A stretch of DNA of 64,000 nt from Clarias gariepinus (Eukaryota), in the NCBI RefSeq assembly GCF_024256425.1, contig NC_071110.1, positions 2,727,451 through 2,791,450 of the forward strand. The letters run 5' to 3'. This document shows positions 5,150 to 8,100 of the stretch, in pieces (within the stretch, counting starts at the first letter, position 1; the number at the start of each line of letters is the position of its first letter). The position numbers were made by a program.

Positions 5150-8100
5150 TGATATTCTGCGATCTCATTTTCCATAAGACTGTTGTTTACTTCAATCGGT
5201 TCCGGACCACGCTGAAGTTGGTTTAAAGTTGGACCTTGGATATTCGCGCGCCGGCTTTCAGATCCTGATTTGCGGCGGAGAATAAATATTAATATAATAT
5301 TTATAATATGAATATTATTCATATTTAGTCAGTAATTTACAGACAGTCATTAACTCGCGCAGTAGACGAGATTCGGTCGCCGGACTCTGAAAATATATCA
5401 TGTCACATATGCGGAGAGAATATTTTTTATATTATGTTTAATACCCCGATCTCACCTATGCGGTTTCGCGCAGTGGCCGTAAATACGGTTCATCATGATT
5501 ACGTTTCATGCATCATGTCATTACATTTCCATCTTTCCACGCGAAAAACCCGGATCTCACCGCGAGTCAACCCGTATACAGTAGGTGTATAAAGGGAGAC
5601 ACAGATTGGTCTAAAAGATGCATTCCGACAGACTGACTGAACAGTTTGTGCTTTTTTATGTGTGTATTTGCCGTTTTTGGACAGAATGGATCAGGGATTT
5701 CTGGACTTTCTGCAACAACAGCGTGAGTTGGATCAGGGCATCATCTCCGTGTTTGTAAATGAAAAGGTAAGTGCATCGCAATTAGAAGGTTTCACAAACA
5801 ACTTTTTTTTTTGTTTTTAGACTCTAGTATTGACCTTTTTATATTGCTCTATTCCCACATTATACTGTATAAACGTAGAATAGCATAGTAGTTATAATAG
5901 CATAAAAGTAGAAGGAAGGAATTTGGAGTAGGACATCACATCGTTAACTCTTTATTCTCTTGTCATCTGTATAAAAGTGCACTAGGGTGTATGGTATATG
6001 GGTTATGTACATGTAGTTTAGCCAAAATCCCAGTATCTTGTGTTTATAGTATTTGTGGATAAACATAACATTAAGCACGTGGGTTACATGGCTGACAATT
6101 AGCGTTTTTCAGTCTTTAGTCAAATACTACAATATTTAGCATTATAAATATATGTTAAAGATATGTGTCAATTTGAAATATGGCTTAAGACTATAGTGCC
6201 ATTTCTTGTGCTTATTGTTATTGTTTATTATATACAATAATCCCTCAACTCTCCTCTGCAGATAGACTGTTATGCTGTAAACGGGATGTTAGATGAGCAG
6301 CTAATGAAATATGTTCCCAAATTTGGAGACAGAATTGCCATTCGACAGTATTGTAGAAGAGAAGTGGCAGCATTTGAAAAGAGTTTCTCGATTGTGTCAA
6401 AAGTTCAACTACGGAGGACTGGTAAAAGAGCTCATTCAGATGATCGTTCTCAAAAATTAGCTGGCAATTTAAATGCCCTTAAAAACAGCCGTACATATCA
6501 AATTGGCTTGTTTGAAGAGGTCGAAGTCTCATTTATTCAAGTCAGAGAAAGAAAAGGAGGTGGAGTCAGACATCTCAAGGCATCGAAGGACACTCCAGTG
6601 AATGAGCTGTTGAACATTGGGAAAGATCTCTTTTTCCCGCAGGGAAAAAACAAGCTTGGAAATATAAACGAGTTTGAATTTACACTAAGAGACTTCACTG
6701 AAGCTGAGCTGGACTCATCCATGACACTTGGTCAGCTGTACAATTTGAGAAAAGTGAAACTACTTAGACTTTATGTGTCATGCAAAAGGATTTTCATGGA
6801 TGCACAGGACTTAACTGCAAATCAAGTAGATTCACATTTAGCTTCATCTTTACACACACACTCAAAAAGCACAGGAATTGTTGTTGATAAGCATGCCAGT
6901 GAAGTTGCTATGTTGACAAGCACTCCCATCAAACTTACCACTGACACTGTAATGGCAAGCACATCAACAACAGACACAAGGTTTCTTTTTATTGATGCTA
7001 ATGATGAGAAAATTAATGTCAAATACATCACCGTTGAATTTTGATGGCATTGACGTGCTGCAAGAACAAAACACATCAGTTTCAGTTGATGAGGAAATCC
7101 AAATAGGGTACGTTTACCTCTCATATGACAATGATGTCCTGGATGACAGTCTTCCAGTGGAGACTGCTGTAGTACAACCTCCATCAATAGGACTTTATCA
7201 TGAAAATAAGGTTGTTAAACTAAGACTTCGAAGAGGAAACATATTTTATGAACTGAATGCTGCATTTAAGGATGGACAGATAACAGTTGATGACATGCTG
7301 CTGGAGATTGAGATGGTCCTTCCAAATGGCAATGCTGAAAAGGGAGAGGACAATGGTGGGGTCTTACGTGATGCCTTGAGTGAGTACTGGGAAACATTTA
7401 TACTAAAATGCACAACTGGGAATGTGCTGAAAGTTCCAATGACCAGGCATGATATGAAAGACGAGTGGGAGAATGTGGCCAAAGTGATGGTGTTAGGCTA
7501 CAACATGGCAAAGTACTTTCCTGTGGCCTTGGCTAAGCCCTTTCTTTCTCACTGCCTTCACCAGGAAATCAAGGATGATGAACTGCTTGCTGCATTCCTG
7601 GAAACAATTCCAAGTGAAGATAAGGAGATTGCAGAGCAGGCAATAAGAAATTTCAAATCCATTTTTGGAAAAGAGGAATGGATTGAATTCCTTGAGGCAC
7701 ATGACATTAAAAGACATGTCACGGAGGACAATTTGAGGAGAACTCTGCTTGAAGTTGCACACAAAGAAATGGTGCAAGACCCAGCCTATGTAGCAGAGTG
7801 TTGGAGCAATATTCTGCAGGGACTCCATCTTCCTCCAGGAGGACTAGATGAAGTGATGTCTAGTCTCACTCCCACAACCAGGAAGGTTGTAGCAATGTTG
7901 CAACATGAAGCTCTCAACAAACGAGAGTGTTAGATTCTGGATTTCCTTAAAAAATTTATCAGGACCTGTAGTGATGTACGCCTGAGAAAATTTCTCCGGT
8001 TTTGCACAGGTAATGGTTTTGTTTGTATTTTCACACAATTGATATTTGTGTAACTAATAATTAAAGATTAGGCTACCAGAAAAAAAATGTTCTGGGGAAC

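What the first reader, a model, noticed from the sequence alone, without database searches (positions are those of the whole stretch)
5686..7933. Left gene of the element: SAM-like N-terminus spanning the exon 1 to exon 2 junction, then two overlapping frames
The spliced product reads …ISVFVNEK|IDCYAVNGMLDEQLMKYVPKFGDRIAIRQY…. This resembles a sterile-alpha-motif signature (I-D-G..L..L…G.R..I), and that resemblance supports the predicted splice. The 252-aa and 313-aa ORFs overlap by 53 nt in the +1 frame with no plausible intron. The copy may therefore be frameshifted (inactive), or the two ORFs are separate products. The function is unknown, and transposon accessory proteins of this size are rarely characterised.
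Basis: inference. Interest (0 to 1): 0.6.

Follow-up and report, generated by a model that had tools for sequence, protein, structure and literature searches.

The report
Dead transposon copy of HECT ligase gene
The two overlapping reading frames are one broken gene: a decayed copy of a three-exon accessory gene of an IS3EU-type DNA transposon. Intact relatives of this gene encode an uncharacterised protein built like a HECT ubiquitin ligase with a SAM domain and a ubiquitin-like domain in front.

Summary
ORFs 6286-7044 and 6992-7933 overlap by 53 nt in the +1 frame, and exon 1 (5686-5766) joins exon 2 (from 6262) through GTAAGT/CAG sites in phase 0.

The overlap is a copy-specific 1-nt insertion: AAAA at 7009-7012, against AAA in a 98.2% identical copy from a sequencing run. 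That copy and all homologues read straight through.

- The "stop" at 7931-7933 is a CAG->TAG nonsense mutation.
- Exon 2 runs on to 8009, and a third exon (9723-9916) follows.
- 24 nt are deleted after 6403.
- The C-terminal half is a complete HECT domain whose catalytic Cys aligns with HUWE1 and HERC5/6.

Repairing the two point lesions gives a 673-aa ORF collinear with 667-724-aa proteins of teleosts and a hemichordate.

The element is IS3EU. Its transposase core is 60% identical to IS3EU-1_CGi, and its termini are TACGG..CCGTA. The same convergent gene pair occurs in three other loci. The transposase of this copy is also frameshifted. No paper I could search describes a HECT accessory gene in IS3EU.

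The parts
4611..5995 (.). Left terminal inverted repeat of the element. It starts TACGGAGCCCC and contains the promoter region, exon 1 and the first 229 nt of intron 1 of the left gene.
   Evidence: Inverted repeats 4611-5995 / 13400-14922, 95-100% identical. Terminus read.
5686..5766 (+). Exon 1 of the left gene (MDQGFLDFLQQQRELDQGIISVFVNEK). It encodes helices 1-2 of the SAM-like domain.
   Evidence: ATG and GTAAGT donor. Homologous N-termini in P0003/4/6/7/8/17. Model helices 3-12 and 17-25.
5767..6261 (+). Intron 1 (GT...AG, phase 0).
   Evidence: ORF-based predictions from other species start reading exactly at this acceptor (P0010, P0026, P0029).
6262..8009 (+). Exon 2. It carries the rest of the SAM-like domain (to about 6378), a linker helix, the ubiquitin-like domain (about 6490-6789), a disordered Ser/Thr/Asp-rich linker, and the HECT N-lobe plus the start of the C-lobe (from about 7208). 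In this copy it is broken by three lesions.
   Evidence: Domain limits were transferred from the AlphaFold models of P0003.
6403..6404 (+). Site of a 24-nt in-frame deletion. It removes the conserved ...KATQSLREKI... segment of the linker helix.
   Evidence: Alignment to L001. The KAT..L..K motif is conserved in homologues.
7009..7012 (+). AAAA run holding a 1-nt insertion (AAA in the intact copy). This is the frameshift that creates the 252-aa / 313-aa ORF overlap.
   Evidence: P0001 reads ...IDANDEKLMSNTSPLNFDG....
7931..7933 (+). TAG nonsense codon (CAG = Gln in the intact copy and in P0002-P0005).
8010..9722 (+). Intron 2 (GTAATG...TTTACAG, phase 1). It is 1713 nt here against about 113 nt in the Brachyhypopomus relative.
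   Evidence: The break after ...FLRFCTG is shared by ORF-based predictions from many lineages.
9723..9916 (+). Exon 3, the end of the HECT C-lobe. It holds the catalytic-Cys motif SHTCGC (Cys codon 9809-9811), the C-terminal tail ...WVMDII and the stop codon TAG at 9914-9916.
   Evidence: The C-lobe profile aligns the Cys with HUWE1/HERC5/HERC6. Pfam HECT match.
11831..13125 (-). Partner gene, shown for context: the IS3EU DDE transposase (rva_4 integrase core), convergent with the left gene. Its last exon is frameshifted near 11944-11947 in this copy.
   Evidence: Pfam PF24764, E = 4e-22. 60.5% and 53% identity to the IS3EU-1_CGi and IS3EU-1_DR cores. Two-frame tblastn match.
13400..14922 (.). 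Right terminal inverted repeat. It ends ...GGGGCTCCGTA and carries a second copy of exon 1 (13707-13627, minus strand).

Best explanation
Shown. Window 5686-9916 (+) is a pseudogenised copy of the accessory gene of an IS3EU-superfamily DNA transposon (element 4611-14922, with 1.39-kb TIRs). The gene has three exons: 5686-5766, 6262-8009 and 9723-9916. A CAG->TAG change (7931) truncates the second ORF, and 24 nt are deleted after 6403. The transposase gene of the same copy is also frameshifted, so this copy cannot make either full-length protein.

Shown by homology and predicted structure. Intact family members encode a protein of about 670 aa. It has an N-terminal five-helix SAM-like domain split by intron 1, then a ubiquitin-like beta-grasp domain closest to the RAWUL type, a disordered linker, and a complete bilobed HECT domain. 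The catalytic cysteine motif (HTCG) is present in all 7 homologues with a complete C-terminus, from teleosts, a hemichordate and a sequencing-run contig of unknown source.

Inferred, about 45% likely. In intact elements the protein is an active HECT ubiquitin ligase made from a promoter at the left end. It accepts ubiquitin from a host E2 on the conserved Cys and modifies a host protein, a chromatin protein or the transposase so as to favour transposition. The SAM domain would provide self-association or targeting, and the ubiquitin-like domain a protein-binding surface.
For: - Frameshift, nonsense codon and deletion are copy-specific. L001 is 98.2% identical over 5966-8329 and intact.
- Deleting one A and changing T7931 to C restores a 673-aa ORF. 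It is collinear end to end with P0003 (59% identity), P0004, P0008 and P0017.
- 9 of the 10 other coding differences from L001 change the amino acid, and where P0002-P0004 can be compared most window alleles are the derived ones.
- HECT: Pfam PF00632 is above the gathering score in P0003, P0004, P0008 and P0026. Foldseek matches the whole HECT domain of Smurf1, HUWE1, NEDD4, UBR5 and E6AP at E about 1e-10 over 370-400 columns. A C-lobe profile hits HERC6, HUWE1, HERC5 and E6AP with the Cys aligned.
- Transposon context: TIRs. Transposase core 60.5% identical to IS3EU-1_CGi_2p and not significantly similar to Ginger1/2. Termini TACGG..CCGTA fit the published IS3EU consensus TAYGG..CCRTA (PMC12730594).
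- The same convergent HECT-gene/transposase pair occurs in Brachyhypopomus (L002), Ptychodera (L003) and an ENA assembly (L004).
- The family is large: 824 clusters at 50% identity reach E <= 1e-30.
Against: - No enzymatic or expression data exist, so ligase activity and any role in transposition are inferred.
- The window's own conceptual product scores 20.7 bits on Pfam HECT, below the 23.9 cut-off.
- Only the C-lobe is detectable by sequence. The N-lobe and the SAM assignment rest on AlphaFold models of a 59%-identical homologue built from shallow alignments (22 and 15 sequences).
- Pfam SAM models do not match.
- This copy lacks the 6-bp target-site duplication expected for IS3EU (CTAATC vs CTTTAT).
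- One further locus (L005) showed no transposase in the 3.6 kb downstream of the gene, after which the contig ends.
Confidence: 0.85

Rival explanations
1. The two ORFs are genuinely separate products, or are joined by programmed +1 ribosomal frameshifting at the A-run, as a designed feature of the element.
For: The overlap lies at a homopolymer (GAG AAA ATT, 7007-7014), a kind of site where ribosomes can slip. The first ORF alone would give a SAM plus ubiquitin-like protein.
Against: The 98.2% identical copy L001 has one A fewer and a single continuous frame. Every homologue, from teleosts to a hemichordate, is collinear across this point. The same copy carries a nonsense codon, a 24-nt deletion and a frameshifted transposase, which fits general decay.
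Confidence: 0.03
2. A short unrecognised intron, not a mutation, bridges the two frames.
For: A GT at 6981 (AAG|GTTTCT) and AG sites at 7078-7079 and 7084-7085 exist in the overlap region.
Against: By my own reading, the phase of that donor fits neither acceptor. L001 and P0001 translate straight through the region (…TDTRFLFIDANDEKLMSNTSPLNFDG…) without any intron. I did not run an exhaustive splice-site scan.
Confidence: 0.02
3. The family protein is a real transposon gene, but its HECT-like domain is a non-catalytic scaffold. In that case the protein works through SAM-mediated self-association and binding by the ubiquitin-like domain (for example as a chromatin or transposase adaptor), not by transferring ubiquitin.
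For: Sequence similarity to HECT is confined to the C-lobe and is weak (20-28 bits). The HECT region is about 330 aa, shorter than canonical domains. SAM plus a RAWUL-like domain resembles Polycomb assembly modules.
Against: The catalytic Cys and the surrounding HTC..L.LP motif are kept in all 7 homologues with a complete C-terminus. The predicted fold covers both lobes at pLDDT about 90.
Confidence: 0.25
4. The gene is a host (cellular or domesticated) HECT gene that merely lies next to transposon sequence.
For: NCBI annotates relatives as ordinary 'uncharacterized protein LOC...' genes, some with isoforms.
Against: The gene lies inside 1.39-kb TIRs and its first exon is part of the TIR. It is paired with an IS3EU transposase in four of the four loci that have enough flank. 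The family is multi-copy and highly diversified. This copy is decaying neutrally.
Confidence: 0.05

Closest known systems
[quoted passage not shown]
   Same: The DDE transposase core is 60.5% and 53% identical to IS3EU-1_CGi and IS3EU-1_DR. Termini are TA...TA, specifically TACGG..CCGTA. A 6-bp TSD is present in the related Brachyhypopomus element. Fish and marine invertebrates are hosts.
   Different: The TIRs are 1.39 kb, against 100-150 bp in GingerRoot and about 350 bp in L002, and they have absorbed exon 1 of the accessory gene. This copy has no TSD. Neither paper mentions a HECT-like second gene.
Fungal TET/JBP-positive IS3EU elements that also carry an alpha-kinase gene (PMC12730594)
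   Same: They belong to the same superfamily and have the same terminal consensus TAYGG..CCRTA. The principle is also the same: an accessory enzyme gene sits in opposite orientation to the transposase.
   Different: The accessory enzymes are a dioxygenase and a kinase, not a ubiquitin-ligase-like protein. The hosts are fungi, not animals.
Cellular HECT E3 ubiquitin ligases (HUWE1, NEDD4/Smurf, E6AP, HERC5/6, UBR5)
   Same: The predicted fold has both the N-lobe and the C-lobe. The C-lobe sequence motif ...FvTG... and ...HTC..L.LP.Y... is present, with the catalytic Cys aligned.
   Different: About 13-18% identity. No human HECT ligase I know of has a SAM plus ubiquitin-like N-terminus (from my own knowledge, not tested). 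The domain is shorter, the gene is carried by a transposon, and all database relatives are unnamed.
SAM domains (tankyrase-1) and RAWUL ubiquitin-like domains of Polycomb proteins (BMI-1, RING1B, PCGF1)
   Different: Sequence profiles do not place them in these families. No evidence of polymerisation or Polycomb-type partners.

Membership tests
IS3EU/GingerRoot DNA transposon | DDE transposase core homologous to IS3EU reference proteins and distinct from Ginger1/Ginger2 | tested here: met
   blastp against cores from Data S3 of PMC10045372: IS3EU-1_CGi_2p 60.5% identity, E = 4e-50; IS3EU-1_DR1p 53%, E = 1e-43; Ginger1/2 E > 0.2. Pfam rva_4, E = 4e-22.
IS3EU/GingerRoot DNA transposon | Terminal inverted repeats ending 5'-TA...TA-3' (fungal consensus TAYGG..CCRTA) | tested here: met
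   Both ends read TACGGAGCCCCCCAGGGG.... L002 has the same terminus. Consensus taken from PMC12730594.
IS3EU/GingerRoot DNA transposon | 6-bp target-site duplication | tested here: not met
   The window copy is flanked by CTAATC on the left and CTTTAT on the right, 2 of 6 identical. The related element in L002 is flanked by GAATTC on both sides. The family therefore fits and this copy does not, and the reason is unknown.
HECT ubiquitin ligase | Bilobed HECT fold (N-lobe plus C-lobe) | tested here: met
   AlphaFold model of homologue P0003, residues 337-660, pLDDT about 90. Foldseek against PDB: Smurf1, HUWE1, Smurf2, UBR5, NEDD4 and E6AP at E 7e-11 to 6e-8, 364-404 aligned columns in the top ten hits. 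Tested on a 59%-identical relative, not on the window sequence itself.
HECT ubiquitin ligase | Pfam PF00632 above the gathering score | tested here: inconclusive
   The window's conceptual product scores 20.7 bits, below 23.9. Intact homologues P0003, P0004, P0008 and P0026 score 25.3-27.8 bits, above it, but only on profile positions about 205-292 of 306.
HECT ubiquitin ligase | Catalytic cysteine in the C-lobe, about 35 residues from the C-terminus | tested here: met
   SHTCGC is encoded at 9800-9817. The Cys is invariant in the 7 aligned C-termini. It aligns with the AHTCF motif of HUWE1 and the corresponding Cys of HERC5 and HERC6.
HECT ubiquitin ligase | Ubiquitin thioester formation and ligase activity | not testable with these tools
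   Needs biochemistry.
HECT ubiquitin ligase | Intact open reading frame in this window | tested here: not met
   +1 frameshift at 7009-7012, TAG at 7931-7933 and a 24-nt deletion after 6403.
SAM domain | Match to SAM sequence profiles (Pfam SAM_1, SAM_2) | tested here: not met
   No hit for the window N-terminus at E <= 10. One of 7 homologous N-termini hits SAM_1 at E = 0.065. The best PDB profile hit that looks like a SAM domain is 2dkz at E = 0.22.
SAM domain | Compact five-helix bundle of about 65 residues that superposes on solved SAM domains | tested here: met
Ubiquitin-like (beta-grasp) domain, RAWUL type | Beta-grasp fold that superposes on solved ubiquitin-like domains | tested here: met
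Programmed ribosomal frameshift / overlapping-gene arrangement | Two-frame layout conserved in other copies and families | tested here: not met
   L001 and all homologues have one continuous frame.

The most novel reading that the evidence does not exclude
Animal IS3EU DNA transposons carry, as a conserved partner of the transposase, a catalytically competent SAM, ubiquitin-like domain and HECT ubiquitin ligase. It is found from a hemichordate and an annelid to insects and teleosts. It would be a transposon-encoded E3 that rewires host ubiquitination (of restriction factors, chromatin or the transposase) to promote transposition. No paper in the searched library describes such a gene.
Probability: 0.35. 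Interest if true: 0.75.

Novelty: new variant of a known kind. Interest (0 to 1): 0.5.

Why it matters
For this window the result is ordinary. The puzzling two-frame arrangement is a dead copy, broken by a 1-nt insertion, a nonsense codon and a deletion.

The wider result is more useful. It gives a definite identity to a large protein family: 824 clusters at 50% identity reach E <= 1e-30, and every named member found is labelled "uncharacterized protein". This family is the accessory gene of animal IS3EU transposons and has the build of a HECT ubiquitin ligase with SAM and ubiquitin-like domains.

Fungal IS3EU elements are reported to carry TET/JBP dioxygenase and alpha-kinase genes (PMC12730594). 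The papers I could search describe no HECT ligase in any DNA transposon. If the enzyme is active, it is a testable case of a mobile element bringing its own ubiquitin ligase.

It also matters for annotation. Many "uncharacterized LOC" genes in fish, insect and hemichordate genomes are copies of this transposon gene.

Tried and rejected
- Pfam on the two raw ORFs gave only noise. Pfam on the 69-aa N-terminus gave nothing.
- A full-length profile against PDB sequences found no HECT hit, because the terminal exons dropped out of the profile. A separate C-lobe profile was needed.
- There are no other copies of the element inside the window.
- Look-ups of P0003 and P0080 found no record.
- L005 was too short downstream to show whether a transposase is present.
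- The GingerRoot supplement is not held. IS3EU reference cores were taken from the IS481EU paper's Data S3 instead.
- Literature searches combining IS3EU, transposon, HECT and ubiquitin found nothing relevant.
- I considered Ginger1/Ginger2 membership and rejected it.
- I considered an intron bridging the two frames and rejected it, on reading-frame phase and on L001.
- I did not identify the source species.

Full report
**1. The observation.** The ORF list reproduces both frames exactly: 6286..7044 (252 aa) and 6992..7933 (313 aa), both on the + strand. They overlap by 53 nt, and the second is in the +1 frame relative to the first. Upstream, an ATG at 5686 opens MDQGFLDFLQQQRELDQGIISVFVNEK. 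A GTAAGT donor follows at 5767, and a pyrimidine-rich CAG acceptor ends at 6261, so exon 2 starts at 6262 in phase 0 and reads ...VNEK|IDCYAVNGMLDEQ....

**2. The surroundings.** The region lies inside an element bounded by long inverted repeats, 4611-5995 and 13400-14922. These are 95-100% identical, with 127 extra bases in the right arm. Exon 1 and the sequence upstream of it are part of the repeat, so a second copy of exon 1 sits at the right end (13707-13627, minus strand). On the minus strand, converging on the left gene, is a gene with an rva_4 integrase core (PF24764, E = 4e-22). The window holds no other copy of the element.

**3. The two frames are one gene, broken in this copy.**
- A conceptual translation found 33 database proteins. 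They include full-length annotated proteins of Melanotaenia (P0003, 667 aa), Brachyhypopomus (P0004, 668 aa; P0008, 696 aa) and the hemichordate Ptychodera (P0017, 724 aa). They also include P0001, a 590-aa ORF from a 2,390-nt contig of a public sequencing run.
- That contig (L001) is 98.2% identical to window 5966-8329.
- It differs at three structural points. The window lacks 24 nt after 6403. The window has AAAA where L001 has AAA (7009-7012). The window has TAG where L001 has CAG (7931-7933).
- P0001 reads ...TDTRFLFIDANDEKLMSNTSPLNFDG... and ...NKRECQILDFLKKF... straight through both points, as do all other homologues.
- Nine of the ten remaining coding differences change the amino acid. 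Where P0002-P0004 can be compared, the window allele is usually the derived one. This fits neutral decay of the window copy.
- I considered a bridging intron. The one plausible donor (6981) fits neither nearby acceptor in phase, by my own reading. L001 needs no intron.

**4. The gene extends beyond the stated end.** After the TAG the same frame continues (ILDFLKKFIRTCSDVRLRKFLRFCTG) to a GTAATG donor after 8009. An acceptor TTTACAG ends at 9722. Exon 3 (9723-9916) encodes ADLLVSQSIHVRFTEPKSTFTRSPQSHTCGCVLEVPNNYGSYLELAEDFTSVLDANMWVMDII and then a stop. Deleting one A and changing T7931 to C gives one 673-aa ORF. It is collinear from end to end with P0003 (59% identity, residues 1-667), P0004, P0008 and P0017. 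Both intron positions are shared widely: ORF-based predictions from several lineages begin reading at the ...|IDC acceptor and run off after ...FLRFCTG.

**5. What the protein is.**
- *HECT by sequence.* Pfam finds HECT (PF00632) above its gathering score in P0003, P0004, P0008 and P0026, covering the C-lobe part of the model. The window's own product scores 20.7 bits, just below the 23.9 cut-off.
- *Overall model.* An AlphaFold model of P0003 (mean pLDDT 72.8, about 90 over residues 337-660) shows five helices at 1-66, a beta-rich domain at 110-210, a disordered stretch at 213-334, and a large alpha/beta domain.
- *HECT by fold.* Foldseek against the PDB matches that large domain to complete HECT domains of Smurf1, HUWE1, Smurf2, UBR5, NEDD4 and E6AP, at E from 7e-11 to 6e-8 over about 370-400 columns.
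- *Catalytic cysteine.* A profile of seven C-termini hits the HECT C-lobes of HERC6 (E = 3e-5), HUWE1, HERC5 and E6AP. The family's invariant Cys (HTCG) aligns with the active-site Cys motif.

**6. What the element is.**
- The partner protein's catalytic core is 60.5% identical to the Repbase IS3EU-1_CGi transposase and 53% identical to zebrafish IS3EU-1_DR. It is not significantly similar to Ginger1 or Ginger2. The reference cores come from Data S3 of PMC10045372.
- Both ends of the element read TACGGAGCCCC.... This fits the TA...TA termini reported for IS3EU/GingerRoot (PMC10045372, PMC6839031) and the TAYGG..CCRTA consensus of fungal IS3EU (PMC12730594).
- The related element in Brachyhypopomus (L002) has the same terminus, about 350-bp TIRs, and GAATTC on both flanks, the expected 6-bp duplication.
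- The window copy has no duplication (CTAATC vs CTTTAT). I cannot explain this.
- The convergent HECT-gene/transposase pair recurs in L002, in Ptychodera (L003) and in an ENA assembly (L004).
- In L002 exon 1 is not part of the TIR, so the duplicated exon 1 is peculiar to the window's family.
- The transposase of the window copy is itself frameshifted in its last exon: tblastn matches in two frames that meet at 11944-11947.

**7. Mechanism.**
- *Shown.* The gene structure, the lesions, the domain architecture, the conserved catalytic motif, and the linkage to an IS3EU transposase.
- *Inferred.* In intact elements the protein is made from a promoter in or near the left end and spliced from three exons. 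It acts as a HECT ligase, taking ubiquitin from a host E2 onto the conserved Cys and passing it to a target. SAM would mediate self-association or targeting, and the ubiquitin-like domain would serve as a binding module.
- *Unknown.* The target, which could be a host restriction factor, chromatin or the transposase.
- I put about 45% on an active ligase that aids transposition and about 25% on a non-catalytic scaffold.
- In this window the gene can at most yield a truncated SAM plus ubiquitin-like fragment.

**8. Comparison and novelty.** The element is a member of a known superfamily. Fungal IS3EU elements are already known to carry accessory enzyme genes (TET/JBP dioxygenase, alpha-kinase) opposite to the transposase. 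I found no paper linking IS3EU, or any DNA transposon, to a HECT gene. All named database relatives are "uncharacterized protein", including ones from the insects Photinus and Phaedon. The family is large, with 824 clusters at 50% identity at E <= 1e-30. Repbase labels the IS3EU-1_CGi transposase '2p', which suggests its curators already record a second protein. The gene itself may therefore be catalogued even if its nature is not published.

**9. Verdict.** I rate the finding a new variant of a known kind. The window feature is ordinary (a dead copy), the family-level reading is of moderate interest, and the overall interest score is 0.5.

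Noticed in passing
window 11831-13125 (-): The partner IS3EU transposase gene has its own ATG (MDKSQL..., about 13125). Its last exon matches homologues in two different frames that meet at 11944-11947, so the transposase of this copy is frameshifted too.
   Followed up: yes
window 13627-13707 (-) and 13248-13250 (-): The right TIR carries an identical copy of exon 1 of the left gene, upstream of the transposase. A candidate acceptor (ttaacAG, exon from 13248) would give a short upstream ORF ...VNEK|VADLGAEYSNCK*. 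Both genes may therefore share one TIR-borne promoter and 5' exon. In the Brachyhypopomus relative exon 1 is not in the TIR.
   Followed up: partly
window 4605-4610 and 14923-14928: There is no 6-bp target-site duplication around this copy (CTAATC vs CTTTAT), although the related element in L002 has GAATTC on both sides. Possible causes are recombination between copies or a flank rearrangement. Unexplained.
   Followed up: partly
window 4654-4860 and 14659-14868: Arrays of imperfect subterminal repeats of about 21 nt (…CGCGC…GTTTATTAAT…) lie in both TIRs. They are plausible transposase-binding sites.
   Followed up: no
window 8010-9722: Intron 2 of the left gene is 1,713 nt here against about 113 nt in L002. 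It holds an inverted-repeat pair at 8089-8133 / 9105-9149 that may mark a small nested insertion.
   Followed up: no
window 10496-10864 (+): A 122-aa ORF between the two genes of the element (…RLRWFGHVQRRD…GRPKRRF…) looks to me like the C-terminal tail of a LINE reverse transcriptase, though I ran no domain search on it. A 51-nt stretch (10634-10684) matches 38695-38744.
   Followed up: no
window 2640-3284 (-): An ORF rich in paired cysteines and histidines looks to me like the RING and B-box zinc fingers of TRIM proteins (no domain search run). The closest relatives of the element's genes are teleost proteins, which points to a teleost source genome.
   Followed up: no
window 18000-24000, 26000-28000, 43000-47000: Blocks of 54-71% G+C with strong GC skew lie in an otherwise 33-45% G+C window. 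Their nature was not examined.
   Followed up: no
L003 10001-19433 (Ptychodera flava CM083785.1); L004 9971-19730 (ENA ERZ24900295): The same convergent pair, a SAM/ubiquitin-like/HECT gene and an IS3EU transposase, occurs in a hemichordate and in an unidentified eukaryote assembly. The two-gene unit is therefore old and widespread.
   Followed up: partly
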